A stretch of DNA of 60,477 nt, counting the filler, from Hausera hauseri (lineage: Eukaryota): assembly GCA_046269625.1 (NCBI GenBank). It is 11 parts of 11 records of this genome, joined end to end, with 100 filler letters (N's around TTAATTAATTAA, not from the genome) between each part and the next. Parts side by side here need not be neighbours in the genome. Positions count along the whole stretch, not along the records: positions 5,307 to 10,496 come from JBJURY010312166.1; 10 more parts are not named here. One strand, given 5' to 3'. Shown here one piece after another: positions 1 to 37,873 of the stretch (within the stretch, counting starts at the first letter, position 1; each line of letters starts with the position of its first letter). The translations under genes and the position numbers were made by a program. The notes under the pieces were generated by a model. The model ran no database searches and was not told the origin of the DNA. It saw only the letters and a program-made list of their open reading frames with translations.

Positions 1-986
1 TACAGTGTAGTTCCCAAGCTCCTAATAAGAGAATACGCTAAAGGGTTGAGAGACAAACCAGAAACGGAAATTAAAGTAAAGGTATCATCCGAATGAATGG
101 ACGACGAAGAATTTGAATGCACTACTTATACCACTGTCGCAGATATGAGACGGCGGATAATGGATATGGATGCTAAAGAAGGAGTTAATTACCGACTCTA
201 TTTCATGGGTAGGATACTAAATGAGCTAGAATCTTTAATAGACGTAGGGATCATACCCCACGAAAAAATCGAATAATAGCAAAAATCATTAGCGAACAAA
301 CCAAAGACAAAGCCATAAGGAAGGCACATACAGAACATTGCGTTGGAAAAATCATGGGGATTCAGGACGCCGCAATGTACTTTGAATACTTACAGACGGA
401 TGACGACAAACCGCAATACGATAAAAATCTAGTCCCTCTAGGTAAAACCCTGCAATCAACGAAACCAAAGCGACCGGTCGGAAGACCAAGGAAAATAAAA
501 GAAGTGGACTATAATGCAGATCTGATTAGAGAACTAAGACAACTATCAGTACCCACTCCGAGTTCAGATAATGAAGAATTAGTTAAGTTAATGAAAGATT
601 TAATAAGGATAGTTAATTATACCGGACTGCAAGGTGACATATTATCCGAGAAAGAAAGACTAATATATAATATAGCACGGACAATAAAAACTTCGCGATT
701 CAAATTATCTAAAAGTACCCTCTATGATGAAATAATAATTGATAGGATCATGATGGATAATACAATGGAAGAATTAAGGAAAGTCTTGATATATCTAGCT
801 GTAAGAATCAATCCTCTCCGAGAAAATGAATTCGACAAGACAGTCGGGTTAGCTAGGAAAACGGCGAGAAGGGTGATTAAAGAAATAAAATGCACTAAAT
901 TATTCGAAAAGGAGGACAATGCGAAAGGGACAAATAACTTAGAGGACATTGTACGAAACATCTCTTCGAGTAAAGGGAACGGACCT

Positions 987-2815
987 AATTGGTTAATCAA
1001 TCTACTGACAATAATGATGTCAGTGAAGCAGATAGGAGCAGTCACCATATACGACTGTGACAAATTCAAGGTGGGTCAGAAATACTCTCTGATGGACTTA
1101 GAAACATGTGAAGATGCAAGACCCCATAAGTTAAAAACAACAGGAAAGAAATACATACTGTACCAACAGCGTGAGTTAATCGCAATGGCTATAATAGAAT
1201 GCATGATACGTGGATCTCGCAGCATATTTCATTGTGGCAACATGCACGGTCACTCTTCAATAATCAAACCTACCACACCATTGATACCAATGAACATGGA
1301 CAGACAACATTGTTTAGTAGCCCGATCAACCGGTAAAATGGTTTAGGTCGGCATGGAATTGGAAACCCAAGAAGGAAAAATAATTAGAGCATACAAAGTA
1401 GCAGTGGAAAAATTAAATAATCACACCGGTTACTGTGTCGGAGCAGAATATGATACGGGAAAAGGAGTAGAAGGATGAATAGTTGTCGTAGATTTCTACA
1501 AAACCCAGCTAAGATCCTTAAAGGCAATGTTTCATAGCGTTACCAAACTATTCACCAAAAATCAAAAATGTCACATTCATGATGGTGCTTGCACGTTCCG
1601 ACGTTCAGTTATCGTACGAAATCCACCTTCCGAGAAGGATTGCAATTTCATCAAAATCAAAGAGTTAAAGTTTAATGAGACCACCGGAAAGCGTTATTCG
1701 AGCAAATTACATGTTAATACCAGATCAGGGGAAGATGTGATAGAACAGCCCATACCAACGATATTGATATCAGACGCACACGGGTTAAAATTTATTAGGA
1801 AAGATATGTTATCACACAGCGTTGTAGTTATGTATGCCACTAACTACGAAGCATTTTTTGTAGCGGAAACAGAAATCGATATGAAAACGCACGATCTGAA
1901 AACACAAAATGTGCGGATCAAGGATTACCTCAAAAACCGAGACGACTATTTCTATTACAAAGGGCAGACCGGGATAACAGAACTTTATCACAAAATAATA
2001 ACAAATGACTGCAGATTAGATAGTGAAGTCATGAGAACCAAACTGGCTCTGATTTACGCCAACACAGAATTGGCATCACCGAGTATACCAATGAAAGAAG
2101 GTGTTTTTGGACGGGTTATTGGAGAAGTTCTATTAACCTACGAATGCGAAAAAAGAGACGTTCCGATCAACGTAGAAGAAAAAAGATGCATGCAAGAACT
2201 ACCGGTTATTTACGAGAATATGCCAAGGCTACCGATGCCACTCGCCAAAGTATTACTGGAAAATGCGACGGAACCAACCATACTGAAGGAATGCAAGACG
2301 AGTCTGAGGGAACCAATGTTTAGACGCAGTGAAACCGACTGGATAAGTCTACCGAATTGAGGTACGGCCGCAGCTCCTAGTAAATTAACCGGGAAAAATC
2401 TAATCAATGGATTATTGGAAGATAGATTCGCAGATACAGTTAATAAAGGAATTTATAGGCCAAAAGACATAGAAGCTTTTAGGCAGTTTTTACAATTTTT
2501 ACGACAGCGAACTTATGAATTAAATCGGGCCATGTCAATGGTCATAGGCGACACCCGCTTTCAAGCGAAGTGAGAGTCGTTGCTCGGCGCTAATAATTAT
2601 CAAGGAGTAACTTCAGAGATATTGTATAAGATTTGGGGAAGGTTTTTAATTTTCGGACAAACCGCATCTGGATTTTAAGCTATCTACTTTCTAGTCCAGT
2701 TAATTAAAGCAGTAATCCAAGCTATTACAAATGGATATGAAATATTCACATTGACAGGATTCTCTTGCAAAATTTTGAGTGCAATTATTACACCCTTTGG
2801 AAAAATGCTTAAGGC
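987..2815 (+). pseudogene. Env-like fusion glycoprotein of chuvirus (Jingchuvirales) type, with in-frame stops
   Basis: Hydrophobic signal, then VTIYDC..YSLMDLETC..LYQQ..ECMI..RSIFHCGNMHGHSSII, LYHKIITNDC, GRVIGEVLLTYEC, CMQELPV, GIYRPKDIEAFR, and a C-terminal hydrophobic block IWGRFLIFGQTASGF*AIYFLVQLIK..NGYEIF..GFSCKIL. Motif order matches recalled chuvirus glycoproteins. ORFs 354, 1527 and 2751 share one frame. Confidence 0.8.
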
Positions 2816-3334
2816 CTATAAAGAAAATCGATGGAAGAATGACGTAGAATGCGACGTCGAGTACTATAACGGTAAACGACGAGGGAGACCCTTGATCCTG
2901 TATAAACGAAAAAACAAGAAGGTGATAACTTGGAGGGACAATTCAGACGATGTTGAGCCTAAGGGAGAAAAAGTGAGTTCCAGAAGAAAGATGCACAAAA
3001 CGTGTTCAGTAATTAATGCGCCACTACCCATAATGCCGCCCACAGCACCGATATATGAAGACTGCGACCGCAAATCAATTGCATCATGCAGGTCCGAAAT
3101 TTATCAGAAACCTATTACTTATGAAGATCCTTATGAAAAAACAAAGCAATACGGAGTACTACGGAAAATGAATGTTATCAACCAAGGACCAACAGAAAAT
3201 GACCACGAAATATTGTACTCAAAAGGATACCGCGTCACATAGAATCGGAATCAACGATCTGGGAAAACCAGAAACTATGTTCAGTCTCGAGTTCACTACC
3301 CCAGGAACCGCTCATTGACAGCCGCGTTACTAAA

Positions 3335-5206
3335 ATGACAAATAACCACTTGTACCCAAACGGAGAATTAAGACAATTAAGGCACGATATTATCTCATCG
3401 CCAGAGATAACAATAAATGGACATAGAGTCTCTACAACAAAGCAATCAAAGAGAGCGTCGAATTGTTTTGGGACAGTGATAGAAGGCAGACCTTTTGCGA
3501 AAATACACATTGAAGATTGGGAAGTGTATGCATTAATCGACACAGGATCAGAGAAGTCGTTTATAAAATATGAATCGATACCAATCACACCTCTAGAACA
3601 ACTATTCCCACTATTATCATCAGATCCAGGTAGCGTAGGAGCATTTGGACAAGCATCAAAGCCAAAATTTAAGTGGACTCCTATCGTTTATATGATGGGC
3701 CAAGCACTTCAACACGAATCTGCGATAATGGACCAATTAACAGATGATGTAGTACTAGGTTGCGATATATTGAAACAAATACCAGACCTGGCTATCGATG
3801 TGCATAACGGAAAATTAATTGAACTCGAACCAATAAAAGGGACAAAAGTAATAAAAGAAAGAAAATCAGGCGAAATATGGATTTCGGTAAATGAAGGCAT
3901 TCCGCCCAGAACGGAAATGAAAAATTTTGCACAAATTCGTTAAGACGAATATTTAACAGTATATTTTGAACCAATAGAGAATATCCACCCAAAGCTCATG
4001 TTTAGTAATGTCCTATCTAGAGTAGCGACGGGACGCATATTTATCAGATTAGTAAATAATGCACCAGTTCCCGTGAAATTGCACGCTAAAACTACTTTAG
4101 GTAACACTTGTAGAGTATCGGCAGTAACAAGAGAAAAAAAACCATACAAGTGTGCTGAATTTCGGCCCCATGTTGAAACCAAATTTTCTCCTGAAGCATA
4201 TTGCAAGTTCTACGAACTACTATGTAAGTACCGTTCAATAATCGCACAAAATGAGGAAGATGTAGGCACGGCGAAAGCCTTGAGATTAAGAATCCCATTA
4301 AGGAAGAAATCGATCTAGAAGAGCAGAAAATGCCTAAATGGTATCCACCTCCTCATTCACTGAGACCAGAAATAACTAAAGAGGTAGTGCGTATGTTAAA
4401 GGCTGATATAATTCGACCAAGCTACCAATCCTGGTACTCACCTATACTTATGATTAAAAAGAAAGGAACTACAAAACATCGATTTTGTATAGATTATCGG
4501 GCATTAAACACTCTGATGATGAAAGACTCGTTCCCATTACCACAAGTAAAAGAGGCATTGGATAGACTATCAGGAGCAAAATGGTTTACCACTCTTGACT
4601 TACAGCCGGGATACTGGCAGGTGGAGATCGAGGAAGAAGATCGATATAAGACAGCGTTTAAAACACACGATGGAGTATACTAATTTAATGTTATGCCCTT
4701 TGGCATCACTACAGGACCAGCTATTTTTACCAAAATGATGAATAAGATGCTTGTGGGACTTGACCATGCATTCGCGTACTTAGATGACGTGATGATAGCA
4801 TCGAAAACAAAAGAAGAACAATTAAGGGACATCGACGATACGCTCATGCGACTAGAACAAGCAGGATTGAAACTAAATCCAGAGAAATATAAATGGGCGC
4901 AGAACGCAGTATCATATCTGGGACATATAGTTGGAGAAGGAGGATAAAAGCCAGATAAATCCCTGCTGAATAAAATATCTGATTTTATAAAATCGCAAAA
5001 TCAAAAAGAGTTAAGACATGTGGTTATTATGTTACTTATGTACCGAACAATTCGAAAATTAACGCACCACTTTATCGTCTGCTTAAAAAAGGAACTAAGT
5101 GGAGATAGCGGACGTTTGTTGAAGAAAGCAGAGAAAAACTATTCAGTTACCGAATTAGAAACGTTAGCTGTTAAGGAAACACTCCGACCTTTTAACGTCT
5201 ATGTCT
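3335..5206 (+). pseudogene. pol: pol (aspartic protease, dUTPase-like spacer, RT, deleted RNase H)
   Basis: DTG protease, IPPRTE..IRLVNN..KTTLG spacer, YLDD RT. Stops, frameshifts, and an internal deletion near 5100 relative to copy B. Confidence 0.92.
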
Positions 5207-5306: not shown

Positions 5307-5607
5307 CTACTTGAAAGACGGTCCATATTTGGTTAACGAAGAAGGTGTGGCCATTTACGTACAAACTGTGAACTGGCTTGAAAGTAGACGTTATTCGCTG
5401 ATTCCGTTTACACCTTTGACATACAAACATGATACGAAATTTCTAATTCTCGGTCTTGAACGATTGACAAAAGCATTCAGTGTTAAAAATCGTCTCAACC
5501 ACATTCAACGGGAAGAATTGGGCTTGATCGAACGATCGTACGATAACCCCCACGAAGCCCTGAGTAGAATCAAGAGACATTTACTAACGAGTAGAAATTT
5601 TGAGGAA
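5307..5607 (+). pseudogene. PRPF8: PRP8 internal fragment
   Basis: [70 protein letters not shown] is close to the conserved PRP8 sequence. Homology stops abruptly at about 5607. Confidence 0.92.
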
Positions 5608-5862
5608 AAGAAATTTGGCAAGTTAGAAACGGATGTGGAATACGTTTCCCATAAAATTGAAACGAACCGAGCGAATTTGAACAAATTGGAAACCTCTCTG
5701 CTAGTAATGGAGAAGGAATTTGAAGACATAGGCGCAAAGTTAAATAAAGCTAAAAGAAATAAACAAAATCTCGAACAAGAAATAAACGAACTTTCACAAA
5801 AATTAGAATCATCCCGATCGAAAAAGAACGGACAAAAATCTTTGCAATTTGTCATGGAACAA
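5608..5862 (+). pseudogene. Coiled-coil fragment, possibly SMC4 pre-hinge arm
   Basis: Heptad-rich segment ending [20 protein letters not shown], reminiscent of the SMC4 arm just before the hinge. In frame with the PRP8 piece. Confidence 0.35.
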
Positions 5863-5864
5863 AT

Positions 5865-6440
5865 GCAGTTTAGCTATGCACCGTCATGGTGTGAACGACT
5901 CGGTAATTCTATCGTTGACGATAATAATTTTACCTTTTTAATAATTTATCTTCCGATACGACCTCATTATGGATTTATTTCTAAATCCAGTTGTATAAAA
6001 TTAATTTGAAACAAAATTCACGGGCTCACTCACTAACATTACACATGAAAAAGGTCGATAGTCTAGAGACACTCTACGAAACATACAGGCGTAACATTTA
6101 CAAATACCAGACAATGGAAGGTGCCAATGCCGAGATCCGATCGTTGACGAACGAAATGTTTGTTAACTATCTGGTGGCACAAAACTATAGTCATATGGGT
6201 CGAGTTTCGGATGCCTTAGAGCCATTGAAAACCAGCTGTATTACACACCGACTCTATTTGACCTCTATGCACTGAAAGGTCGTATTTATTACAATGCTGG
6301 GAATTGCCATTTAACGAGTAAGCGTTTAGACGAGCATAAATCAATGGACACAGCGGATCGATACATTAATTGTCTCTGCATCAAATACATGATTGAGTCT
6401 GGTCGATTTAAAAACGCTGAAGACATGGTCGCACTTTTGA
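5865..6440 (+). pseudogene. NAA15: NatA auxiliary subunit (NAA15/16) TPR fragment, frameshifted
   Basis: FVNYLVAQNYSHMG..ALE / HTPTLFDLYALKGRIYYNAG / MDTADRYINCLCIKYMI..AEDM match NAA15 YYLAQHY..TPTLIEL..KAKIYKHAG..LDTADRFINSKCAKYML. Confidence 0.82.
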
Positions 6441-6564
6441 GGGGAGATTCGACCACCCTGCAATTTGGGGCCCGCCGCGCCGGGGCGGAGGTCCCGTCCG
6501 TCAACCCTGCACCGGTCGGTCAGGCGGCGCCTTCCGCGTCGGCCCCAAAACACGCCCCAGGCAC

Positions 6565-9500
6565 TCTACGTCCCCCTCTCTATTTTCCTTTTCCTCAATA
6601 ATACACACATTTACAAACTCACTACACCACATTTACATATTGCAACCCTTCGTACCTTCATTTCTTTCTTATTTAACTCTTTCGAATTTTATCTCACCCA
6701 TAACGGCGCTACAATATCTCTCACCGGAACCCTACCATCTTTCTCAAGCCACACTTGCCTCCACATACATATCAGTATCCGTGGTGGCATGAACTCTTCG
6801 CCAACCATAGACACCACGGATAAAACCACCACAAAACCAAAATCTGTTATATTGATTCAAAAACCCAATCCTAACCATGCTAGCAACCTCCCATCCATTA
6901 CCTCTTCCGCTCCTTTCCCTAACTGCACGGAATTTTTTATTGACAACCAAGGCTCCAGCAAAACTTGGTTGCAATTCCATCATCCATGGCTACAGGCAAA
7001 TAACATCACTGACTCTTTAACTAAATCACATAATCTTCTTTTCTTACTGCCTAATAATATCAGAACACGCATTCACAACATCATCGAAGTCTTTGAACTT
7101 CCAGACCAATATTACCAACTTTCTAACGCAGTTCTTAAGATCACAGAACCTTCCATGGACACGATCATACAACGTTTCTTTTACGAAAGCGTTATAGGCA
7201 CCCAATGACAATCGGAATTCTTACGCACCTCTTTAGCACAACTACAACCCAGATCTACTGCGCCACTATTTCCTTAATGCGCTAACTATCCAAATCCGGG
7301 CCCTACTTACCGTGGTGGAGGACTCCACGTCGCTTGAGAAATTGGCCAAATTAGCCGATAGGACACACGATATCCTACACGTAAATTCTCCACCAGTTGT
7401 TTCAGCAGCAGTTGCCGCTAACGATAATACATCCATAGAACAACAGCTTAATAAGTTACGTGCTGAAAATATTGCATTGCATGCAACAATCAACAATATC
7501 AATAATGCATTAAACGAATTGTCTCTCTCCCGCGGAAGGTATTTTGCCTCTGATCGCGCCCGTTCTGCGTTTAGAAATCGCTTACCATCGCCTGCGCATT
7601 CGTCGATCTGCTATTACCACAGCAGATTTAACACTAATGCTTAGAATTTCTGCATAGGATGCAAATTTTATAACAAGAGTTTTTCCTCGGACACCGTTGT
7701 TTGCATCTACCATACAAGGTTCAAAAATCAGGCTTGTAAATGCATTCCAGATTGCATTTTCAAATCAAATACGAACGACGGACTTACTGCCTTTCCTTCT
7801 AATAGTCGTCCTAATTCACCCTTTCAAAAAAACTAAGTTTGCCGCCAGAAGTCACGGAAAACTCTGGTAAAAGCACTACTTCACTTTCTGAACGCCGGCA
7901 CGTCTCCTTTGCTGTCTTTACTCTAAAGGCTGCAATCACCGCTCCTACAACGCAATCTGTTGAGTTTCTCATCGGTACAGATGCAGCGATTTTTTTATTA
8001 CCACAAACCTTTCCTGTACAAAATTCTCCATTCAGAATTAAGCTCTTATACACTGCTTCAGGCCAACCGCTGCACATTTCTGGCATGGCTAAATTATCTT
8101 TCACTTTATCAAAATTTTCCTACACCTTTTCACTGGACGTTCACAGTCGCTAACGTCCAGATGGCAATTCTAGGATCCGAATTCCTATCACATTATAATC
8201 TACTAGTCGACTGCAGTCAACGACGTTTGAGGAACGGCACCACTGGCGACATTTCTAGATATGTCAATAGCATTTCGACTACCGCGAAGTCGACCGGAAC
8301 GCGGAGGTCAATTTTAAAAAGTCAATAAATAATTCCAATTTCCATAATAATAACAACTCTATTCGTAAATTTTTAAATAATAATATTGATATACGATCGA
8401 GGTTTAATGTCGATAATTGTGGTACTGCCATCAACGTTAATTTATTCGACTAAAATACTTCATCCAACACCATTTTCAATTCGACCATCTTACATCAAAT
8501 ACCACTTGATTGCACATCACCTAACAACTCACAAATGGCATCCGCTACCACTCAAGACGTTTCACCACTTCCACCAAATCTCCCACAGTTACCCACAACT
8601 TTACAGCAATTCGCCAACACATCATGTCCACGCGTACTTAAAAGAGACCGTACTTTTACTCCTGCAAACAGTACTTTACACCACATAGTTACACAACATC
8701 AACAACCCATACGCCAAAAGGTAAGACTCCTGCCACCTCGTCATAGACAGGCCGCAGAAGCCGAATTTCTTGAACTAGAATGTTCCGGCATAGTACACCG
8801 TTCCAAATCTTTACATGTTGTACAAAAAAGACAGTACTTTTAGACCATGCGGTGACTACCGACAGCTGAACAACTTGACTATCATGGATGGATACCCTTT
8901 ATCACTTATCAAGGATATCTTGCATCGTCTTAATTCAACCGCCATCTATTCGACCATTGATTTAGCTAAAGCATACCATCAAATACCGGTAGCACCCGAA
9001 GACATAGAAAAAAATGCAGTAACTACTCCTTTTGGTCTCTACGAATACCTATTTATGCCATTCGGTTTTCGGAATGCCGCACAAACTTTTCAGCGGTACA
9101 TTGATTCAATTCTTTCCGAATTCCCATTTGCACATCCTTATATCGACGATATTCTAATCGTTTCATCTTCAGCCAAAAAACACGAAGAACACCTTCGCGC
9201 AATATTCCAACGTCTTCACCACCATAATGTCTAAGTCAATTTCGACAAATGCAATTTCTTCAAAAAGCGCATTAACTTTTTAGACCACGTTATTTCACCA
9301 GACGGTCATTCTCCTCAATCAGACCAAGTCGAAGCTCCCAAAAACATCCAGTTGCCACGTACAACCACCGAAATGCGCAGCTTCCTGGGCACACTGCACT
9401 TTGTACATAAATATGTACCATATTGTTCGGAATTGACAGCACCATTCGCATACCTAAGCGGCGGCAAAAAACATCAGCCAATCCAGTGGACACCTGAATT

Positions 9501-10496
9501 GGTTAACAAATTTGATAAACTACGCGAAGGAATTAAAACCGTGGATATTCTAGCTTTCCCCAAGCCTGATGCAGAACTCATCCTTACTACAGACGCGTCA
9601 ACCACTGATGTAGGTGCCGTACTCCACCAAATCTACAAGGGAGAAAATCAACCACTAGAATTTTTCTCTCGCAAGCTAACAGCACCTGAAACCAGATATT
9701 CAACGTTCGATCGAGAACTATTGGCCATTGTTCTCGCTTTAAAGCATTTCTCCTACCTACTTGTCGCTCACCATTTCATTATACAAACTGATCACAAACC
9801 CTTACTTAACATCATGGCTATAAAACACCCTTCCACACGGCAAGAACGACAAATATCATACTTGTCGACATTTAACTTCGAAATTAAACACATTAATGGG
9901 GTTAACAATTTAGTTGCTGATTTTTTATCTAAGTCGGTTAGTTCGATTAATTTTTCACCGATCTTTACGCAATATCAACTTTAACAGAACCAGCCACTTC
10001 AGGACATGCTTAATTCTTTTAAATCTTGCACAATCGTTGACAGCGTGGCTTTAGACACCTTCAAACCAGGCCATTCCGTAATAATTCTAGCACCATCATT
10101 GCAAAGGCAAGCATTTTATATTGTGCATTCACTACACCACGCTGGTATGAAGCCACTTTTCGTCTACTTCATCGACAAATAATATGGCCATCAATGCGTT
10201 TTGATGTACAGGCATGGGTTAAGGAGTGTGTGGCTTGCCAAAAATACAAAATAGCTAAGCATTTAAAGCCACCACTATTCTACTTTCCCTGCACATCGCG
10301 TTTCGAATCCGTGCATATCGACATCGTTGGCCCTCTTCCTACAGACAACGGACATCAATTCATCCTTACCATGACGGACCGTTCCTCGCGATGGCCAGAA
10401 GCCATCCCTCTGCGGAGCACAAATAGCGACACTGTAGCTGACGATTTCATTCGCACATGGATTAGCAGGTTTGGATCACCTCGCTTCATCATCACG
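6565..10496 (+). mobile_element. Decayed CsRn1-like Ty3/gypsy element: Ubl-Gag (two CHCC-type motifs), PR, RT, RNase H, IN
   Basis: Gag (IRALLTVVE..LEKLAKLADRTHDI; CYYHSRF..C and CIYHTRF..CKC..C), PR remnant (FLIGTDA, ILGSEFL), RT (FRPCGDYRQLN, PYIDD), RNase H (TDAS, YSTFDRELLA), IN (HIDIVGPLP). Confidence 0.9.
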
Positions 10497-10609: not shown

Positions 10610-10870
10610 ATGAGTGCATTTCTGAAAACTGGAATCGGTAAAAGAATTTTTTCTATAATGGAAAGTTATGTTAAGAATATTATCAAACATTCTGGTCCGT
10701 TGAGTATACATCATTTTATGAGAGAAGTTTTCACTAATCCAACAATGGTAAATATTAATTCAATAAATCCTATGGTTATTATTATGACGGGCTATTACAT
10801 GAATCAGGACGTTTTTGGTAAAACTGGTGATTTCGTTACTTCTCCTGAAATGTCTCAAATGTTCTGTGAA
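10610..10870 (+). pseudogene. NDUFAF7: NDUFAF7/MidA methyltransferase 5' exons only
   Basis: IIKHSGPLSIHHFMREVFTNP..GYY..DVFGKTGDFVTSPEMSQMFCE. A 42-nt GT intron at 10748-10789 ends in ACG (acceptor apparently broken). GTAAGT donor at 10871; no downstream exon recognised. Confidence 0.85.
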
Positions 10871-10891
10871 GTAAGTTTTTATTTAGGCATA

Positions 10892-13109: not shown

Positions 13110-14350
13110 TAGGGTTGTCTCCGATGAAAACACCAGTCTCTTGTATATAGATGTAAATAATTTGTACGGCGGGGCTTTATCACAACCTCTGCCATTTGCA
13201 ATGAGAACGTCTTGACCAGTCTGATCCAACAGTTGCCTTTTATTTACTGTGTTAAGGAAAAACGAGGCTTAGTGTTTGAAGTTGACTTAAGCATTCCGGC
13301 TGACAAACATAATAAGTTAGACCAACTGCCTCTAGCTCCAATCAACCAATGTCCTCCTGGTTCTAAAGTAGAGAAATTGTTGCTGACACATGAGCGTAAG
13401 TCCAACTATGTTGTTCACTATCGGCTCTTACAATTATACATCGAGTTAGGCGCTGTAGTTGAGAAGTTACATCAGGCCGTTGAGTTTGACCAGAGTCATG
13501 TCTTTCAGGATTATATCGATCTAAACACTGCAAAGAGGGCTGAAGCAAACAATCGTTTTGAAAAAGGTTTCTTTAAGCTTAAAAACAACAGTTTGTATGG
13601 CAAAACCGTTGAGAATCTGCTGAAAAGGTCAAATTTGAGACTGTGTAATAATTCTAAAAAGCTTATTACTTATACAAGCAAAGCACAGTTCAAAGAAAGT
13701 ATTATCATAGCCGATGATCTGGTTGCCGTTCTTCTTGATAAAGACATGGTTACATTAGATAGGCCCTCGTACATTAGTCAGGCCGTACTCGATCTTTCCA
13801 AATTGCGGATGTATGAGTTGAATTATATCGAGTTGCAGAAGTATAGACATCGGTTTAAATGTGAAATAAATATTATTGCTGGTGATACAGACAGCTTTTT
13901 CATTGATTGCCGTGGAGTTAATTTGCGATCACAACTTTTCTGGCAATGATAGCCGATGAACAGTTGGACACGTCTAATTATGAAAAGCGTGACCCTTTTT
14001 ATTCCACTCGTTTCTCGTCTGTAATAGGGAAATATAAATATGAAAGCAAGGGCTGTGTAGAGTACCTAGAGGCAATTTTCTTGCGGCCAAAATCGTATTC
14101 GTTGAAAACGCAAATGACACCTGTCATGAAATGTAAGGGCATAAATCTCAAACAGACAAATTTGCAGCATAAGAGCTATGTACAGTCGTATGAAAATGGA
14201 TGTGAACAATAGTCGAGCAGGAGAGAATTGGGAACAAAAACCATCAACTAATGACTACCATCTCAAAAAAAAGCATTGGACCCATTCGATGACAAAAGGC
14301 AGTGGATACTGAAGAACAAAAGTGTTGCGTATGGACATTATTGCATTTGA
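13110..14350 (+). mobile_element. polB: Protein-primed family B DNA polymerase (Polinton/Maverick type, family A), C-terminal half, disrupted
   Basis: YIDVNNLYGGALSQPL, FFKLKNNSLYGKTVEN, GDTDSFF, LRPKSYS, KCKGI, FDDKR..AYGHY. Confidence 0.9.
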
Positions 14351-17894: not shown

Positions 17895-18370
17895 GGGAAA
17901 CTATTCGAGTCAAATAGAGATGATGAAACATTGGAAGGATTTTGGAAAAGTTGGAGAGACGTAACAGGTCAATAGATGAGGCATTTGTTTATAAAAAGAA
18001 TGATGCTGGAAAATGTTGGAGCTAAATAATTGAGTTTGAAATGGATGATTTCGAATTAGTTATAATGAAATGGTTCAATGAACTTCATCCACTTTACAAT
18101 TGGTTACATGGGTTTGTGACGTATTGCTTGGGTAACTATTACTATCGAATGTTCAACTCAACATGGCCGATACCTGCTCATATATTGGGTAACCTGTGGG
18201 GTCAGGAAATGCAGAATATATTCTCCATCATTCAGTGGTGTAGAGGACGACTAAACATGGATTATCAGGAGGAAATAAACAGAAACCACAAGGGATATGT
18301 ATCATTTTGCTGATGAATCCTATGAATCATTTGAAATGTACACAAATGACGAAATACAAATGAAGGACCC
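17895..18370 (+). pseudogene. ACE: Angiotensin-converting enzyme-like (peptidase M2) fragment
   Basis: FESNRD..FWKSWRDVTG, FNELHPLYNWLHGFV..WPIPAHILGNLWGQ. Contains stops and an internal deletion; no intron seen. Confidence 0.85.
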
Positions 18371-18972
18371 TTTCATCGTTGTGACTTAATGTGCAACGAA
18401 TGTTTGATGATTAATCACAAAGAATGTATCATGAATGAGTACCGAATGATTCATCTCAAGTCAAAATATGAAAGCAAATTGTAATAATTCTTCAATATAA
18501 TTATTTATTTCTGTTAGTAGATCGCGTTTCTACTATTCCGACCTCAACGTCACTCGATGATTGTAAGATTGAATTCTGCATAAGAAATTTATTATAAATG
18601 TTTGTATAACAATTATCTCCTTCACTCATTAAATGATTCTTCTTTTCAACCTGTTTTTGAATTTCCTAAATTTATATTGGCTGTTTATTGATTTAACTTT
18701 GAATTAAATTTAAACATTAATATTCGTTTAAATTCCTCCTCATAGTACTAAAATACTTGTCGCGGACTATACTACACATAATACACAAATAATTTGTACA
18801 ACTTTAATTTAAATTCCTTAACGTAATTCATGGAATTCTAGATTTTATAAAAATAATTTTTGGACATATTTTGGACATCCTGTAAGAAGTATCCAATATA
18901 AATTTAATTAATTATTTACGTAAAATTAATAAACTTCATTTAAACAACAAAGGTTATAAATTATCAGTTAAA

Positions 18973-21890: not shown

Positions 21891-22744
21891 GTGTTACTTT
21901 GCAATGAGTAATTACAAATGATCAAATTCTGCTTTAGCGGACATACCAGGGGCGGGATTTTCCAACCCTACCTAAGCTGTGAGACGATGTGGACGGCATT
22001 GATGCGCCCGCAGCCAACATACATATTGTGGAATCAACGAATTATATCCAGTTTGGACATTTGCCTTTATTAAAACCGAACACAACGAGAAGCAACACTT
22101 ATGCATCCAAAATATAAAATTGATGATTATGTACGTATTTCGAAATTAAGTTTAACGCCATTCATTAAGAATTTCAATCAGAACTAGAGTGATGAGGTTT
22201 TCCGAATTTCCGCAATCAATACGAAAGAAACACATGTTATGTATGTTTTATAAGATAAAAATGGTGAGGAAATACGTTGTAAATTCTACGAACAAGAACT
22301 GCATTTACTACTTGAGAAANNNNNNNNNNNNNNNNNNNNNNNNNNNNNNNNNNNNNNNNNNNNTTAATTAATTAANNNNNNNNNNNNNNNNNNNNNNNNN
22401 NNNNNNNNNNNNNNNNNNNGAAAGATGGGACCATTTACAATGCGGTATAGATAAGAGTGAGTCATGGTGTAATTTTGTGGCTATATTGGGTAAGGATTGG
22501 GTTGCAATGGTAGGAGTAACCAATTGAAGCGTGTTCTTTCTTTGTATAAATCATGTGCAATAAATACCATATATTCTGCATCCATCTTATTGGGTAAGAA
22601 GTACTCTGGATCTTTATAAAAAGTGTAAAAGGCATAAATCCGTTTTGACTGTAATTGAGGTCGATAGCCCCCAATACTATAGTACGAGATATATGCCAGA
22701 GATTGAGGAAATTTGAGGGTCAATCGGGTAAATTTCGATAATGG

Positions 22745-23086
22745 AGGAATTTTGGCAATTTGGACTTTCATTCAAATCTGTTTCGTGACTGAAATATTGA
22801 ACTTTCGACCAAATGTTTTTTGTAATTTGTAGAGGAGAAACGGACCTACAAGATTCTGTTATCGCTACCAAGTTAGCATGATTAGAAACATGAAAATGTT
22901 GCATTCAAAATTACCCCAAATATCGTGTAAATTTCCCTACTTTGAGGAATTTTGGCAATTTGGAACTCCATTCAAATGTATTTTGTGACTGAAATATTGA
23001 ACTTTCGACCAAATTTTTTTGTAATTTGTAGAGGAGAAACGGAGCCACAAGATTCTGTTATCGCTACCAGGTTAGCATTATTAGAA
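22745..23086. repeat. Two ~143-bp direct repeats, period ~199 bp
   Basis: gaggaattttggcaatttgg...gttagcat.attagaa at 22745 and 22944. Confidence 0.9.
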
Positions 23087-24251
23087 TATAGATTATATAT
23101 ATCTGAATATAGATTATAAAACATAAATTCATTTTAATAATATTAAAAATGAAAACCGAACAAATATATGTAAAATAAAATATTTTTTAATCTTTCACAT
23201 GCTCGCTGTCTTTTTCGCTGCACACAATAATTCGACTTGAAACGCGTATTTGATCTGCTTAGAAATTTTGAACAAACGCTTGTTTAAACAAAGGTTATAA
23301 GGAAACGGTTAAACTATTTTGTACACTGTAAACAGTTTATACTTATATATACAAATTACCCAGATTCTGCCCAAAACTTTATATCAGAGCATTAAAACAC
23401 CATGCATAATTTGTAAAATCTGTATATATCATTCATGAATTGATAACACTGTACTCAAATTGTATCGATTTTTTTGTATAAGGGAAAATTTATGTCAATG
23501 ATTTATATTTTCATTTTGTATACATTATTATTATGGTATCATAAAATATAAATAAATCTAAATTTGTTAGTTGAGTTCGTATTTATTTTGTGATTCTCGA
23601 TTTCAGTGGCGCTCCATAAGAGCTTTAGGGCATAAAACACTACCCTATGGAATCTAACTTCAAAAAACATTTTCATAGTATTCACCATCTAATCCATTTT
23701 ATTTTTGGTGGCGTTTTAAATTTTAAAATTTTTGTGCGTTTTATATCCATTTAACCATGAATACATTTGAAAATTTCATATTTGGTAACGCTATGCAAGA
23801 AGTGAATTTAATTTAATAATAAGCCAGTTACAAAACATTAAAAACGGGTTTTTTGGGCGAAACTTCATAATGACCCTTTAACTGTGAAATCTAAGATTAT
23901 TAAAACAAAATGCATGAATATAATATACAATTTGTGTACTGAATTAAAAAATTGCGTCGGGTGAATATTACAGGCTTAATAAAACGGTCATTGTGTAAAT
24001 GACTCGATCACATTCCAATTTTTGTTCAGAATTATCTATCTTCCATTTATTTTTATATAAGGAGTTCAAATTTGTTCAGGAGAACATGATGCATTTAAAG
24101 AGAATTTTTTATTATTTCATAACTTAATATTATATTTTAACTTTTCAATTATACAAATATATTATTTAAATTAATTATCTAATAGGATTTTGAAATTTTA
24201 TTCCAGTTAGGTTTAATGTTATGGTTTGATCTTCACTTGGAATTAGATACA

Positions 24252-24692
24252 GAGAAAACCATAAATATATTCATTGAACTGTAGACGTAGTGCCGTCATA
24301 CTTCCAAAACAATAAAAATTCAAATGTAATGTTCCCTGATACAACTTGATATATAAATATATATCCTTGGTTAGATTCGAAAAATATACAATACATTACT
24401 TTAAAAATATTGCATATTTGATTTATTTTAATAATTGGTTATGTAATGTACCAAGATCACTACACACATCATAAAGTGATATTGGTACATTACATACCCA
24501 ATTTTTAAAATAAATCAAATATGCAATACTTTTAAAGTATTGCATGGTACATTTTTCGATTCTAAGCAAGGATATATATTTATATATCAAGTTGTATCAG
24601 GAAAAGTTACATATTTTAAATCTTTATTTTTCTTAGAACTATATGACGGCACTACGACTACAGTTCAATTAATATATATATATGGTTTTCTC
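24252..24692. repeat. ~440-bp foldback / MITE-like inverted repeat
   Basis: Arms of ~210 bp (gagaaaaccata..ctgtagacgtagtgccgtcata.. / ..tatgacggcactacgactacag..tatggttttctc) around a ~12-nt loop near 24465. Confidence 0.92.
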
Positions 24693-24858
24693 GGAACAAA
24701 TTTCAAATTTTAGTACATTTAAATTTTTTCATTTCATGTTTTGAAATTATAGACAATGATAGGCGTTGGCAGCAATTCTTTAATAGTAAATGGATTTGTT
24801 TAAATAAAAATACCGTTTGTTACATTCAAATAATTTAAAAATTATTTTTAATTTGTAG

Positions 24859-27012
24859 GTCTGAGTCAGTTGATATAAGTGATGAAACACTGATAAGATA
24901 TTATTTACGTATATTTTTTTCCTGAAGTTAAATCACATTGCGATATTTAGAAGAACCTTTTACCATTGGTGCAAATGAATTGGTTACCAAGAATGCCGTT
25001 ACCAAATTTACTGTAACCAAAGTTAAATTGGATGACATTATTTATGATAATTCCAACGTAGAAAATGTGTATTTCAGGGTAATTGGTTGTTATCTAACTG
25101 TTAACTTTGTTTTTCAGATATCAAATGTGACACCCATTCAGTTTATTTACAATGGCGCAAGTCCTGAACCACTCTTCGCTTTGGATGAAATCGAATCAAA
25201 ATTGTCGGCAATTTTAGTGGGAAGTAGTAATGGAATATTCATTATTTCGTAGAATTAAGTGGTGTGTTTTGTCTTTATGGTCCAGAATGTTGAGGTAAAA
25301 CTCTTGCTAAAGAAAATTAGTCGATCATATCCCGATAAACACTTTCTGGTTTGATTTCGTCAAATTAACGTAAGAAATTTGTCTGTAATCCTTTATAATT
25401 TTACTATTCTTAGGGAAACGTATTTGAAAGAACCGTCCTACATTGATGAATTATGTTTAACAATTTCCTGTCTAAAGTTTGCCTTTCGATATTTGTAATA
25501 ATTCATGTTTGGCGTTGTTGATCTTCATGTGATTCTTATGGCCAATGCTGACATAATACAGAATGATGAGGCAAAATGTGTATACCGATGATTTCTAACA
25601 CTTTTGGTTAAACAGTTTTCTGTAACAACTCATTTTACCGACGTATAGGAAAAATGCTGACATTAATGTGAAAATAATAATCACAACAAGCAACTTAAAG
25701 CTCATGCATCTTTTAATCATGTCACTTTCGCATGAGTGCATTCTCATACGCTCATTGAACAATACAGAAAAGGCAGAATATTTAAAGCATCTCGTGCGAG
25801 TTTCAACAAAACGAACAGTTGATGAAGACGGTATAGATGAATTCGCGAAAACTTTGTACGGATTCACGGCTAAAGATATTGCGTTCCTCGTGGACCTGGT
25901 TTCCAGTGGCCATCCTGAATTGACTCTAAAAGATTTCCGCTAAATGTCCAAAGAATATCGATCATGTAACATTGCAAATTTTGTCGCCGATGTACAAAGC
26001 GTCCGTTGGTCCGACATTGGTGGTTATGATCACGTTAAGAGCCAGATGCTGCGGCATATTCAAATTCCCCTTTTGAATGACGAGAACATTCCAAGTAGAG
26101 TGTTGCTCTATGGACCACCGGGTTGTTGGAAAACGATGTTTGTAAAGGCACTGGCTACCGAATGTAATTTGAATATGTTTTCCATTACGCCACGGGATGT
26201 TATGAGTAAAAACGTTGGTGAAAGTGAGGCTGAACTGCACAATTTTCTCAATCTTGCATTGGCATCGGCTCCGTCGATCATTTTCATTGATGAACTCGAC
26301 GCACTTGTACCAAATAGGGATTCAGGATTATTGGATTTCTGTTGCCTTCTGGTCGTTATGTTCCATTTAGTCAGGCGTCATCTGTCGGTGATCGTCTGCT
26401 CAGTCAGCTGTTGTTGTCAGGTGTTGAGTTCTTTTCATTGCCGTTACAAATCATCGAGATAAGATTGATCAAGTAAGACGATTAAATATTTGTCGTGGTA
26501 AATTGTCTTCGTCAGGCATTGATTAGACCTGGTCGAATTGATTTGTCCATAGAAATTGGACTTCCTGATTTGACAGCACGACAGGAGATTTTAAAGATTG
26601 TATTTGCTGACAAAAATTATCAAATTGATGACGACGTACTGAATAACATACCGGACATTGCTGACGACTTGACGGTCAATCTGGTGCATATATTGTCAAC
26701 ATCGGGATGGAAATTAAACATTTCAGTGATGACTGTTCTGGTGATTCCGGTGACAGGCCAATTGTGACTATGACTCATGTCGATCATGTTCTCAATAACA
26801 TCGTAATGGAAATTCAACATTTCAATGGTGATTCCGATGATAAGTCCTTTGTTACTGTGACTCATACTGATAACGTTCACAACAATTCTGCTTTCTTCAT
26901 TGATTCTTTGTTCGATCAGTTGCGCTCGGCATGTAAAGTGATTCTAAGTTGTTTTGTAGCTGGACTTGGATTCGGTATTATGTATTGTTTATTAAAATAT
27001 AAAAATGTTTAA
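24859..27012 (+). pseudogene. Double-ring AAA+ ATPase (CDC48/AFG2-SPATA5-like) with short introns, disrupted
   Basis: D1 LYGPEC*GKT; D2 VRWSDIGG, VLLYGPPGCWKT, SKNVGESE, PSIIFIDELDAL, ALIRPGRID..IGLPD..RQEIL. In-frame stop at 25941. Confidence 0.8.
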
Positions 27013-30045: not shown

Positions 30046-30049
30046 TGCA

Positions 30050-33000: not shown

Positions 33001-33340
33001 TTTGACTTGAAGTCTGTTAAATGGGCAATATGATCTTCATAAAACGGTATGTATTCTCCATTACATACATCCTCACATCCTGGGCAAATATATTACAGGA
33101 TGCTGATGAATTTGTATTCATGGTAGCTTTTCATGGTATTATGACGTTCTGAGGGTTGTGTATTGCACATATATTTGAGCATAATTTTTTTTCGACTTGG
33201 TGAAAGAAATCATGTTTATGTCCATTGTCAAAGTCTTCATAATTGGTTTGGCACACAACCTCACATGTAGGGCATATGTAATACTCATCCCTGTTGTAAA
33301 GATGGCCGTGATTTTGGAAATAACAAAATATGTAGCCATA
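30050..33340 (-). mobile_element. polB: Protein-primed PolB family B (Cys/His N-terminus, endonuclease VII-like zinc finger, exonuclease, polymerase), 3'-truncated and decayed
   Basis: SHIQLPKWI..INVHNDDNMCF, RDHCHFTG, PVVFNNLSTYD, KNVFPCDY, TDVLLL, IERGIRGG, YNNSVFGKTM. Confidence 0.88.
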
Positions 33341-33747: not shown

Positions 33748-35072
33748 CTCATGAGGCCTTACCTTGCGTCTCTAGACGTTTTCTTGACAGCGTGGATTTA
33801 CTAACAGATGATGTCGAAGATTCCGTTAGTGAGTACATGGCTTATACACATAGCATAGTTAATAAAATTAGTGCTCAGTACTTAGCAAAGGACAGAAAAT
33901 ATAACTACACAACTCCAAAGTCATTTCTGCAGAAAATCGACCTGCACAAAAACTCTCAGTCGAAAAGGACGAAGAAGTCAAACTGAAAATACAACGATTA
34001 GTTAATGGTTTTGAACAATTAAAAGATGCTGCCGAACAGACCAAATCATTAAAAGTTCAATTAGCTGACCAAAAAGTCGTTGTTTCAGAAAAAAAAACCC
34101 AGCTGCTAAAGAACTGATCGTCGTTGTCAGCGCCGAAGCCGAAAAGCTTAAAGCAGAAAAAGAAGTTGCTGCTGGTGATGAAGCAAAAGTTGCAGTAATA
34201 AAAAAAGAAGTCGAGAAACAGGCGCGAGAATGCGAAAGGGATTTATCACGAGCCGAATCGGCACTGATTGCAGCTCAGGAAGCTCTGAACACGTTGAATA
34301 AAAACAATCTGTCAGAATTAAAAGCCTTAGCATCTCCTCCACCCTATGTTGTCATGATAGCTCAGGCCGTAATGGTACTTATGGAAATGGATGGGAAACT
34401 TCCACGAGATAGAAGTTGGAAAAACATAAAAGCTGGTAATATGGGGAAACCTGATGGTTTTCTAGCAGCGCTTTTAAACAACGACTAGGAAAACATCAAT
34501 CAAATTAGTAAAGCTGCCGCATTAGTCCATGTTCATAAGCAGAGTTTTGAGCCGGAAATAATTCGAGAAAAGTCTGTAGCCGCAGCCGAACTTTGTGCGT
34601 GCGTCATAAAGATATTAAAATTCCACGATGTATACTGCGATGTTAAACCATAAAGAAATACTCTTGAAGCCGCCAACGAAGAATCACGGATGGCAACAGA
34701 AAAACTTGACGTCATCCAGCGAAAAATCGGGGCTTTGGAAGCATCTCTCGGTGTATAGACGAATTAATTCAAATTTGCCACTAACGAAAAATTTCGATGT
34801 CAAGAAATGGCAGATTTCACAGCTAAAACACTCGATTTAGCTATTCGATTAGTTAACGGATTCGCTTCAGGGAACGTTAGATGGGTTGCTCAAGTGAACG
34901 GAATTCAAACGTTAAGAGATACCATACCGGGTAATGCTTTTATTGCCACGTCATTTATATCTTATTACGGGTATTTTACAAAATATTTCCAAAATACATT
35001 GACGAACGATAAACTGTGGCCATTTTTGAAAAGTCAATCAAATCGCATACTAATTCGTGATAATATAGATCC
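33748..35072 (+). pseudogene. Axonemal outer-arm dynein heavy chain (DNAH9/11/17-like) AAA4-to-stalk fragment, intronless
   Basis: KYNYTTPKSFL, LNKNNLSELKALASPP, PRDRSWK, LAIRLVNGFASGNVRW, FISYYGYFTK. Stops and frameshifts. Confidence 0.88.
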
Positions 35073-36019
35073 CAATTCATCTCCTGCGTTAACCGAAACA
35101 CGAAAATCCAGCAGCTCATCATATCTACTTGACCAAATACAATCATCCCAAAATCTTGTTTATAGAATAATTGATTCCAGTTCTCCGGCAAGGTTGATTT
35201 CACTGTTTTGTCTAGCTCTGTCTCCGGACAATTTTGTGAATGTGATACGGATTCTGAGTAATTGGTTATCCAGTAGTTTCATTTCCTTCTATTTAAACAA
35301 TAGCGATAGAAGACAGATCGAAGCTGCCATTTTTGAGAATGTAAAGAAAACGAATATGATAAAGGAATCGGTTATTATTGTTCGTAATTAGAAAAGAAAT
35401 AATACAAATATTTTATGTAAAAGACCTACGCCAGTTTATGACGTTCAAACTGCACTAAGGCCTTTTCTTTGCCATCTTGGATATTTATGAACTAATGCTC
35501 TTCTTTCTGATCGAGCATCATCTGTTAAAAAAATGAATGGCAAAAGTGATTATATCGACATAAAAGCTTTTCGAAATCAAGGAATGGTTCCTCAAGTCGC
35601 AGATACTATTATACTCTCACCACAAAGACAGATCAAATCACACGGTGCCCATGTTAATTTAACAGCATTCGGTCCTGGTGAAAATTGCTCAGCGCAATCA
35701 TTTTGCATCAAAACCACATCGTCAATGATTGGTCATAATGAGGATACTGTCATGGCATTCAGCAAAACCACCTTCAGTTACAGATGGGTGAGATTTTTTC
35801 ATTGATTTGCCCCCACCAGTGTGACCATTTTTTGCGCATGTGCAGACCCTTCCTGGCTCAAACCATTTTTTATTTTAAAGGGTTTCTAAGCTTAACATCT
35901 TTGTATATTTCTTTATCCTAATGATGATTTGCCACCGCTATCCCGGCTGTACGCTCGAACCGCTTCTTAACCCAAAAGGTAACCGCCCAAGCCCCCGTGA
36001 ATTTTATCGTTCCTTTGAG

Positions 36020-36915
36020 ATGACCTCATTACAATTTTCTTTCCTGGTCTTTAGCTACAATCAATACATTACAACCTTACAAGCTCCACTCAACTAGACA
36101 GCACAGTTTTTATGTAACGCTTTGTCCTCATCATACAAAACTTCTGATTTCTATTTTACATACCAGGGTCTTATAATACATCCTTCAGACTCCCTCTTGT
36201 CTTTCGTATGCCACGAACGTCTAGACACCTATCTCATGCTCCATTTTCGCCTCCGGGGTGGATCGGATCTCAATCCGTCCTTCTTGGATGATAAATCGAC
36301 AAATACAGACAACGTCTATCATTTGTCACACTCCCAACAGTCATGAGGTTCATTAAATTTACCTTGTGTTGAATTTTTCCTCGACAAAAACAACTCCAGC
36401 AAACCATGGCTCCAATTCTACCAGTATTGGCTAAAATCGAACAGCATCACCGATTCTTTTGTGCGAGCAAATAGCCTCTTAATTCTTCTGCCTACCAATG
36501 TCAAACAGCAGATTAATAATATCTATGAGCTGCTACAATCCTCGACACCTTATGAGACACTCTGTGAAGTTATACTACATGTCACGGATCATTCGATTGA
36601 CAATATAATACAAAAGTATTTTAATGACCACGTAATAGAAAACCAAAAGCTATCCGACTTTTTCCAAACGGCCATTATGCAGCTCAGCGCTTTAGGAGTA
36701 ACACCTACGAATAACGCGTATTTAATTCGCCGTTATTTTTTATCGTCCTTGCCCACCTCAATCAGAGCCTTAATCACCGTTGTCAACGAGTCCACTGCCA
36801 CCGAAAAACTGGCAATAATGGCTGACAAATCCTTTGAGATTCTTCATACCAACAGTTCTCTCCCTGTTGCGGCTGTAACCTCATGTGCTCCAACTACAGA
36901 ATTAGATAAATACAA
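36020..36915 (+). mobile_element. gag: Second Ubl-Gag copy of the CsRn1-like family, truncated after Gag
   Basis: ATG at 36020 to HFRLRGG (36262), then Gag homologous to 6790-7420 (EFFLDKNNSSKPWLQFY, LLILLPTNVK, IRALITVV..EKLAIMADK). Confidence 0.82.
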
Positions 36916-37639
36916 GCCCCGAATGGCAAGACTGACATTTGTCAATGATGTCCCAAAATTTTTCATTTAATCATCTCTTTTCCTCACTGGTCAAAGGCTC
37001 TACATTGTAACTGTTACGTAAGATCGGCAGACTCGCAGTGCTGTTATTACCTTTAGTTCTTTTGTGTGAATTTTCCGTCAACACGATGCCTCACCTTACA
37101 ATGGAATTTGGGAACATAGTATTATAACGAGTTATGTTTGCAGCTGCCATAATCCATAAACTGTATCAACTATTTTTTTTAAATACCAATCTCTAGAACT
37201 TAGCAGAGAAATGGTTGATTTCCCTCTAACTTCTGTTTTTTTTTCCCAGGAACTGGCTGGGAACTGGGCATGGTTAAGGGCAAACAACTGTAGTACTCAG
37301 TGTGTTAATTAAATTTTTTTTTTCAACAATCCGTGGGATCGTAGGACTTGCTATTATGAGTTTGCACATTTCCCGTTAAATACTGTAAAAATATTGCTAT
37401 TTTTTACCAGATATCATCGCATGATGATCTCCAAAGTGAAACCCTTGCATATAAAAGTGGAGGAAACTACTCAAGCTGTGGATAATGCCCAGCATAAAAT
37501 GAACAGTGTGGAAAACAAAATGAAGGTAATGTGTTTATAATCTAAGCAATGATCAATCCTTTCGTATCATGTCATGGTTTACAGTAAGCCAGTCAAGTGA
37601 CATGCACAGTATATAGTACTTAGTTTCCTCTTCATGTGT

Positions 37640-37873
37640 GGGGCTCAATGGTCTTGAGGTAGGATGTCCGCCTCAAGTGCTAGAGGTACAGGGTTCGAAT
37701 CCCAAAGGAAGCACTTAAGATTTTTGTCTCCGGGATCCTCTAGTAAAAAATTCCCCAGATCTCTGGGTAGTGAGATCGGACGTCCGTGTTCATTGTCGTG
37801 CATGATAAAAATCCCTTGGCAGTTGGAAATAAAAAAAGGCTTAACGGCCGCTGTCCAGGAAAAATATACCCTC
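37640..37873 (+). mobile_element. tRNA-derived SINE-like element
   Basis: A-box-like TGGTCTTGAGG and B-box GGTTCGAATCC, followed by a non-tRNA body. Confidence 0.55.

What the first reader, a model, noticed from the sequence alone, without database searches (positions are those of the whole stretch)
5307..6440. Intronless chimera of host gene fragments (PRP8 + SMC4-like + NAA15) directly 5' of the Ubl-Gag element
Seen: apparently three unrelated gene pieces (PRP8 and NAA15 clear, the middle one tentative), all sense, joined without spacers (the first junctions in frame within ORF 5311-6009). They end ~130 bp before the Ubl-Gag with no visible LTR in between. Inference: serial mRNA capture by RT template switching into the element leader, or Pack/Helitron-type shuffling.
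Basis: partly seen in the sequence, partly recalled or inferred. Interest (0 to 1): 0.7.

Follow-up and report, generated by a model that had tools for sequence, protein, structure and literature searches.

The report
Host-gene scraps at retrotransposon's front end
Broken pieces of ordinary host genes (PRP8, an unidentified coiled-coil gene and NAA15) sit end to end directly in front of a dead jumping gene, probably picked up as messenger RNA while the element copied itself and likely lodged where its terminal repeat should be, an unusual position for a known kind of gene capture.

Summary
Real, but dead and close to known biology. The window joins 11 contigs; the finding starts at the first base of contig 5307-10496, so the element's outer end is missing. 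PRP8 (5308-5607) and NAA15 (about 6040-6454, frameshifted) are confirmed, sense and colinear with their homologues. A NAA15 intron present in 36 of 41 intron-bearing homologous loci is absent. The middle piece (5608-5835) is a coiled coil, but SMC4 was not supported; 5836-6039 may be more NAA15. No LTR fits between NAA15 and the Gag; a CA-then-TGG site at 6461-6468 looks like an LTR end plus primer site, but no tRNA was available to test it. Downstream lies a decayed CsRn1-like Ty3/Gypsy element. A contig from a public run, about 87% identical, spans the NAA15-element joint. A second related element in this window has different cargo (1.3 kb of uninterrupted dynein) in front. Best reading: mRNA pieces captured by reverse-transcriptase template jumps, likely into the LTR position (0.5). 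Capture into the leader, or later juxtaposition, remain open. Earlier scan notes report the same pattern, including PRP8::NAA15, on other pieces of this genome.

The parts
5308..5607 (+). PRP8 fragment (human residues about 794-893), cut by the contig start, with changes at conserved residues
   Evidence: PDB phmmer E 1e-43, ungapped; decay
5608..5835 (+). Coiled-coil fragment of an unidentified gene, in frame with PRP8; SMC4 not supported
   Evidence: heptad check; only generic coiled-coil hits
5836..6039 (+). Possibly the diverged upstream part of the NAA15 fragment; unassigned
   Evidence: 7 of 500 shuffles, near-colinear; not significant (12 of 60); one run-X1 contig links 5944 with 6234 (table 5)
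6040..6454 (+). NAA15 (NatA auxiliary subunit) fragment, frame broken at about 6221, lacking the conserved K|HAG intron; ends within a few codons of a second conserved intron site
6455..6468 (+). Candidate LTR tip (CA at 6461-6462), 3-nt spacer and TGG start of a candidate primer-binding site; unverified
   Evidence: motif scan; no tRNA available to test it
6466..6580 (+). GC-rich (76%) element leader, high copy; folds no better than shuffles
   Evidence: composition; depth rises about tenfold in bin 6351-6524; z -0.44 for 6435-6570
6600..6788 (+). Ubiquitin-like-looking segment ending in RGG, directly before the Gag ATG; fold unconfirmed
   Evidence: motif in both elements; low-confidence model; no fold match
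6789..7755 (+). Decayed Gag, DUF7041-like, with a C-x2-H-x9-C-x3-C motif at 7702
   Evidence: Pfam E 0.007; atlas 0.90; motif
8794..10496 (+). Decayed pol in Ty3/Gypsy order (RT, RNase H, integrase), broken into several frames and cut by the contig end
   Evidence: Pfam E 5.9e-25, 1.1e-28, 2.2e-9
33750..35073 (+). Sister element cargo: decayed, uninterrupted axonemal dynein heavy chain (DNAH9/17-like) fragment
   Evidence: 681 nt for 226 codons
35076..35787 (+). Sister element: RPAP3_C-like piece, then an unassigned nearly open frame or a short LTR, ending in an att-like TTACA, 2 nt and TGG
   Evidence: Pfam E 0.0014; 16 of 5000 shuffles equally open; motif
36122..36970 (+). Sister element RGG segment and Gag, 47% identical to the Gag of the first element over the aligned part
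   Evidence: tblastx E 5e-42; alignment

Best explanation
This is a dead copy of a CsRn1-like Ty3/Gypsy retrotransposon with a stack of broken, sense host-gene pieces directly in front of its leader, which were likely copied from co-packaged mRNAs by reverse-transcriptase template jumps and likely occupy the 5' LTR position. Inferred steps: (1) tRNA priming starts minus-strand DNA at the site near 6466. (2) This short strand must jump templates anyway; instead of going straight to the element's 3' end it lands on a host mRNA (NAA15), then on others (the coiled-coil gene, PRP8), in one round or over several. (3) A last jump returns it to the element's 3' end, so the cargo becomes part of both LTRs while gag-pol stays in place. 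(4) The unit is copied onward, and this copy then decays. Shown: the identity, order, sense and decay of the pieces, the missing intron, the lack of room for an LTR between cargo and Gag, and a second family member with different cargo.
For: Pieces are partial, sense and colinear. The K|HAG intron is present in 36 of 41 loci with an intron at either tested site, out of 67 fetched, and is absent here. No poly(A) tract. gag-pol is retained directly downstream, unlike retrocopies that replace internal ORFs (PMC5131818 section 5). The last CA..TGG before the Gag lies at the cargo's 3' end in both elements: 6461 and 35781, the latter also matching the CsRN1 3' att consensus of PMC3601003. A run-X1 contig of 267 nt covers 6346-6607 with 27 other letters and 8 gaps, so a diverged copy has the same NAA15-element joint (table 8). 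At 7 of the 8 listed PRP8 sites 6-9 variant contigs lie on the cargo, and 5 at the eighth (table 3), which hints at several copies. The sister element has 1.3 kb of uninterrupted dynein plus further pieces in the same slot.
Against: The primer site is unverified: no tRNA was in hand, and CA..TGG occurs 12 times in 5307-6800 and 9 times in 33748-36300. The CA at 6461 does not match the CsRN1 att consensus. Neither end of the element is on the contig, so no LTR head, no 3' LTR and no target-site duplication were seen. In the sister element 35416-35782 could be an ordinary 367-nt LTR (TGTAA...TTACA), which would put its cargo outside that LTR. The parent genes are not in hand, so intron loss rests on other animals and microhomology is untested. 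The PRP8-coil joint is not shown to be bridged by 31 letters on both sides. Depth from contigs is no copy number (one search's own caveat).
Confidence: 0.5

Rival explanations
1. Ordinary internal LTR-mediated retroposition: the mRNA pieces were captured by template switching into the 5' leader, between an unseen LTR plus primer site (beyond the contig start) and the gag gene.
For: Fits every shown fact except the placement of the CA..TGG site. Multi-gene internal chimeras are published: a two-gene fly retrocopy, a four-gene 'Super' retrocopy and maize Bs1 (PMC5131818 sections 5, 6, 10). The contig starts inside PRP8.
Against: In the published fly cases cargo replaces internal ORFs, while here gag-pol is kept. 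Both elements have a CA..TGG right at the cargo's 3' end. Unchecked scan notes place cargo behind a fixed LTR head on other pieces.
Confidence: 0.22
2. Later juxtaposition: the chimera arose as an LTR-cargo-LTR retrocopy or inside an upstream tandem element, and was joined to this gag-pol by a deletion or recombination that removed most of the intervening LTR.
For: The sister element may keep a normal 367-nt LTR between cargo and leader. Run X1 shows deletion-like joints nearby (5944 to 6234, 6484 to 6577). Note e1-9342549 reads another piece this way (unchecked).
Against: A diverged copy shares the same NAA15-leader joint. The sister's candidate LTR is also a nearly open reading frame, reached by 16 of 5000 shuffles, which suggests coding origin.
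Confidence: 0.16
3. Assembly chimera of unrelated repeats and genes.
For: Short, fragmented assembly. Run X1 holds only 0.45 of the words. The PRP8-coil joint is not shown to be bridged, and the narrower read check was not available.
Against: An independent contig spans the NAA15-element joint, and one contig covers 5828 with 33 letters to its end. The pieces carry frame breaks and changes at conserved residues that live genes would not have. The same layout recurs in a second contig.
Confidence: 0.07
4. DNA-level capture by a Pack-type or Helitron transposon, with the retrotransposon inserted next to it.
For: Such elements stack gene fragments (review PMC13317346, passages).
Against: A conserved intron is missing, 1.3 kb of dynein is uninterrupted, all pieces are sense to the retroelement, and both cases abut the same Gag family. 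No long inverted repeat in this contig was among the 25 longest listed, apart from the spacers.
Confidence: 0.05

Closest known systems
LTR-mediated retrocopies of animals (Tan et al. 2016, PMC5131818; abstract and sections 5, 6, 10 read), including CG4799_CG11924_r and the four-gene 'Super' retrocopy
   Same: Partial mRNA pieces from several genes, fused to LTR-element sequence, no poly(A), apparently multiplied afterwards; template switching as mechanism.
   Different: There the cargo replaces internal ORFs between two LTRs. Here gag-pol is kept and the cargo lies upstream of the candidate primer site. Microsimilarity and flanking LTRs could not be tested here.
Maize Bs1 (as described in PMC5131818 section 10 and PMC13317346 passages)
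   Same: Exonic pieces of three host genes stacked in one LTR element.
   Different: Bs1 cargo is internal and forms a transcribed, translated chimera. This one is decayed and may lie in the LTR slot.
BARE-2 of barley (PMC13317346, passage in section 6)
   Same: An abnormal template switch put foreign sequence into the LTR.
   Different: The foreign sequence came from another retrotransposon (Wis-2), not from host mRNAs, and was not a stack of pieces.
CsRn1 clade of Ty3/Gypsy elements (PwRn1, AgCR; PMC2582038, passages)
   Same: C-x2-H-x9-C-x3-C Gag motif, RT-RNase H-integrase order.
   Different: An extra RGG-ending segment precedes Gag. A tRNA-Trp primer site, a 4-bp target duplication and a roughly 380-nt LTR were not seen or not testable.

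Membership tests
LTR-mediated retrocopy (Tan et al. 2016) | Partial host coding sequence lacking parental introns | tested here: inconclusive
   Conserved intron absent, 36 of 41 intron-bearing loci of other organisms have it; the host's own parent gene was not available
LTR-mediated retrocopy (Tan et al. 2016) | Joined directly to LTR-retrotransposon sequence | tested here: met
   3' side; the 5' side is cut by the contig start
LTR-mediated retrocopy (Tan et al. 2016) | No poly(A) tail at the 3' joint | tested here: met
   No A-run of 8 or more in 5307-6800
LTR-mediated retrocopy (Tan et al. 2016) | Cargo replaces internal ORFs between two LTRs | tested here: not met
   gag, RT, RNase H and integrase follow the cargo; LTRs are not on the contig
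LTR-mediated retrocopy (Tan et al. 2016) | Microsimilarity at switch points | not testable with these tools
   Parent genes and the uncaptured element end are not in hand
CsRn1 clade (Ty3/Gypsy) | CHCC Gag motif C-x2-H-x9-C-x3-C | tested here: met
   Found at 7702; definition from PMC2582038
CsRn1 clade (Ty3/Gypsy) | RT-RNase H-integrase order | tested here: met
CsRn1 clade (Ty3/Gypsy) | tRNA-Trp primer-binding site | tested here: inconclusive
   TGG after CA at 6466; no tRNA found in the window or in 60 of 67 loci scanned
CsRn1 clade (Ty3/Gypsy) | Paired LTRs with 4-bp target duplication | not testable with these tools
   Both element ends lie beyond the contig
CsRn1 clade (Ty3/Gypsy) | RT phylogeny places it in the clade | not tested
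   No reference elements were fetched (empty)
SMC4 (middle piece) | Sequence match to SMC4 coil or hinge | tested here: not met
   No SMC4 or hinge hit; only generic prokaryotic SMC/Rad50 coil scores of about 19 bits against cut-offs above 560. A short diverged piece could be missed.
Pack-TIR / Helitron capture | Captured pieces keep introns | tested here: not met
   (judged against other organisms' introns)

The most novel reading that the evidence does not exclude
A Ty3/Gypsy lineage routinely builds the body of its LTRs from host mRNA: the obligatory first strand transfer lands on co-packaged transcripts, so each element carries a changing stack of sense gene fragments between a fixed LTR head and the primer site while keeping gag-pol and staying mobile. 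That would be an exon-shuffling conveyor built into normal replication, and would mean the integrase tolerates an almost wholly host-derived U5.
Probability: 0.3. Interest if true: 0.72.

Novelty: new variant of a known kind. Interest (0 to 1): 0.4.

Why it matters
This copy makes no working protein, and multi-gene capture by LTR elements is published. What would matter is the position. If cargo sits in the LTR, it is doubled at each replication, costs the element none of its own genes and lies next to its promoter. That would make gene capture a routine by-product of the first strand transfer and not a rare accident, and it is directly testable by comparing the two LTRs of full-length copies. 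It also warns annotators that PRP8, NAA15 or dynein hits in this genome may be transposon cargo.

Tried and rejected
No whole genome is held, so parent genes and full-length sisters could not be read. Searches for sister elements found nothing: Gag in viral contigs, metagenome contigs and the protein collection; RT in viral contigs; exact look-up, 0 of 10 proteins; scan notes by sequence or relatives. The middle piece was not identified; the single library hit was a repetitive precursor protein. A NAA15 homologue search gave nothing at E 1e-10, so homologues came from a motif scan. No RNA holder was listed; this is no evidence on expression. A closer look at the joints in run X1 was not available, so bridging of 5608 stays open. 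Rfam found nothing in the leader, and it folds no better than shuffles. The two elements' leaders do not align convincingly. No tRNA was found to test the primer site. The ubiquitin-like fold was not confirmed. Selection for the in-frame PRP8-coil ORF was rejected: at most two in-frame joints arise by chance 1 time in 9, and conserved residues are hit. As a control for host introns, a NDUFAF7-like start at 10611 has a 42-nt GT-starting interruption without an AG end and a GTAAGT donor at 10872 (and the sequence); this is only suggestive. Literature searches (listings only unless cited) showed no title or abstract start on stacked host mRNA pieces filling an animal LTR; the library lacks most subscription papers, and supplements were not read.

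Full report
Setting. The window is 11 contigs joined by N spacers. The finding begins at the first base of contig 5307-10496, which ends inside an integrase. Neither end of the element is present, and no whole genome is held. The other contigs hold retroelements, DNA-polymerase-B elements and host genes, so the source is a repeat-rich eukaryote. Earlier scan notes call it a probable flatworm (unchecked).

The pieces. 5308-5610 aligns without a gap to human PRP8 794-894 (E 1e-43). NAA15 is found in two frames (Pfam NatA_aux_su) and aligns without a gap to human 394-473. A frameshift-aware alignment to a profile of 20 homologues gives one break at about 6221 and ends at 6433. 5608-5835 is a coiled coil (73% hydrophobic at a/d positions) and does not match NAA15 (325 of 500 shuffles score as well). 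SMC4 is not supported: no SMC4 or hinge hit in PDB or Pfam, one spurious hit in 1.84 billion proteins, nothing at 0.9 in the atlas, and only generic coil scores in NCBIfam. 5791-5946 matches the part of NAA15 just upstream, within about 24 nt of colinear. 7 of 500 shuffles reach it and 28 of 1000 with a smaller profile, but the gain in the full alignment is reached by 12 of 60 nulls. One X1 contig ties 5944 to 6234. So there are three pieces, and NAA15 may start near 5836.

Introns. A motif scan fetched 67 NAA15 loci. Two could not be read at the K|HAG site and one was unclear. 36 have an intron there and 28 are continuous, of which 5 have an intron at the next conserved site. So 36 of 41 loci with an intron at either site have it; the remaining 23 continuous loci show no intron at either site and may be transcripts. 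The window is continuous there. A further intron near reference residue 204 shows as a DNA gap between flanking matches in 6 of 29 genomic loci examined, and the window has no insertion at the matching place. The NAA15 piece ends within a few codons of the FTR|E intron site, where 30 of 67 loci have a GT. Tan et al. noted a switch site always near an exon junction in one fly family. These tests use other organisms; the host's own genes were not available. 5932-5990 could hide an intron remnant.

Decay and copies. One public run holds the stretch (X1, 0.45 of words). Its contigs lie on all 30 bins; depth is 58-111 over 5307-6350 and about 1000 from bin 6351-6524. Of 900 variant rows only 40 were shown. 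Among the 8 in PRP8, 6 change the residue, and at 5 of these the other copies carry the residue of human PRP8 (read). In NAA15 this holds for 2 of 5. X1 contigs also differ by one-letter indels near the frame breaks. This copy has therefore decayed. 5-9 variant contigs per PRP8 site hint at several copies, although the tool warns that depth is no copy number.

Joints. A 267-nt X1 contig covers 6346-6607 with 27 other letters and 8 gaps, so a diverged copy has the same NAA15-leader joint (table 8). Only one contig covers 5828, with 33 letters to its end, as expected of a rare joint between commoner pieces. The distance-to-end values at 5547 and 5550 both point to 5608, which suggests that many PRP8-bearing contigs stop at the PRP8-coil joint (my reading of table 3). 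Bridging of that joint by 31 letters on both sides is not shown, and a closer look was not available.

The element. Downstream lie a DUF7041-like Gag (Pfam E 0.007; atlas 0.90) with C-x2-H-x9-C-x3-C at 7702, the CsRn1-clade motif (PMC2582038, passages), and then RT, RNase H and integrase in several broken frames. A segment ending in RGG precedes the Gag ATG in this and the sister element. Its ubiquitin-like fold is suggested only by a weak model and was not confirmed. Between NAA15 and that segment lie about 150 nt, mostly 76% GC, with no polyadenylation signal. PwRn1 LTRs are 381 nt, so no LTR of that size fits. The last CA..TGG before the Gag is at 6461-6468, right after the cargo. It is one of 12 such sites in 5307-6800, it does not match the CsRN1 att consensus (PMC3601003, passages), and no tRNA was found to test it.

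A second case. Contig 33748-37873 holds a related Gag (tblastx E 5e-42). In front of it lie 1.3 kb of decayed DNAH9/17-like dynein (681 nt for 226 codons, so uninterrupted), a RPAP3_C-like piece (E 0.0014) and a nearly open frame of 137 codons (16 of 5000 shuffles; unidentified). That frame ends in an att-like TTACA, 2 nt and TGG. It can also be read as a 367-nt LTR (35416-35782), so the sister supports the family-wide link with cargo but not the exact placement.

Mechanism. Established (PMC5131818, sections 5, 6, 10): reverse transcriptase of LTR elements switches onto co-packaged mRNAs and back, yielding partial, multi-gene retrocopies that can be copied again. There the cargo replaces internal ORFs. 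Here the ORFs are kept and the cargo lies 5' of the candidate primer site. I infer that the short minus strand, which must jump templates anyway, landed on NAA15, then the coil gene and PRP8, before reaching the element's 3' end, which would place the cargo in the LTRs (0.5). The placement idea came from earlier scan notes and was only partly testable here. Rivals: capture into the leader behind an unseen LTR (0.22), later juxtaposition (0.16), misassembly (0.07), DNA-transposon capture (0.05).

Novelty. Multi-gene LTR capture is known. Foreign sequence entering an LTR by template switching is known for BARE-2 (PMC13317346, passages). My searches (listings only) showed no report of stacked host mRNA pieces in an animal LTR. 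The scan has noted this pattern on several other pieces of this genome, including a PRP8::NAA15 fusion (e1-9896520); those notes are unchecked and are not counted as evidence. Verdict: a real, dead chimera, a likely new variant of a known process, with the distinguishing feature unproven on this contig. Interest 0.4.

Noticed in passing
window 225-5206 (+) and 53763-58924 (-): Two related decayed Gypsy-order elements carry a Monjiviricetes-type fusion glycoprotein gene upstream of protease-RT-RNase H, not in the usual 3' env position (Pfam PF24664).
   Followed up: no
window 17900-18480: A decayed, apparently uninterrupted angiotensin-converting-enzyme fragment (Pfam Peptidase_M2, E 4.8e-16) lies about 400 nt before a 490-codon ORF with repeated RGRP motifs and an integrase core; possibly cargo of a different element.
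   Followed up: partly
window 35392-35787: A nearly open frame containing C-x14-GHNED, which resembles the C45 autoproteolytic hydrolase motif as I recall it; no library confirmed this.
   Followed up: partly
window 6600-6788 and 36122-36262: Both Gag genes are preceded in frame by a segment ending in RGG, which could be a ubiquitin-like leader cleaved by host proteases; fold unconfirmed, and no matching paper appeared in the listing.
   Followed up: partly
window 10611-10890: NDUFAF7-like gene start (E 5.7e-13) with a 42-nt in-frame interruption that starts with GT but has no AG end; intron remnant or local duplication.
   Followed up: partly
window 13161-13949, 29086-33647 (-), 37974-41922: Related decayed elements with protein-primed DNA polymerase B and an endonuclease VII domain, Polinton-like.
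   Followed up: no
window 22420-28985: The contig begins and ends with the same 77 nt and holds a long inverted repeat around 24324-24612; an assembly loop or a tandem unit.
   Followed up: no
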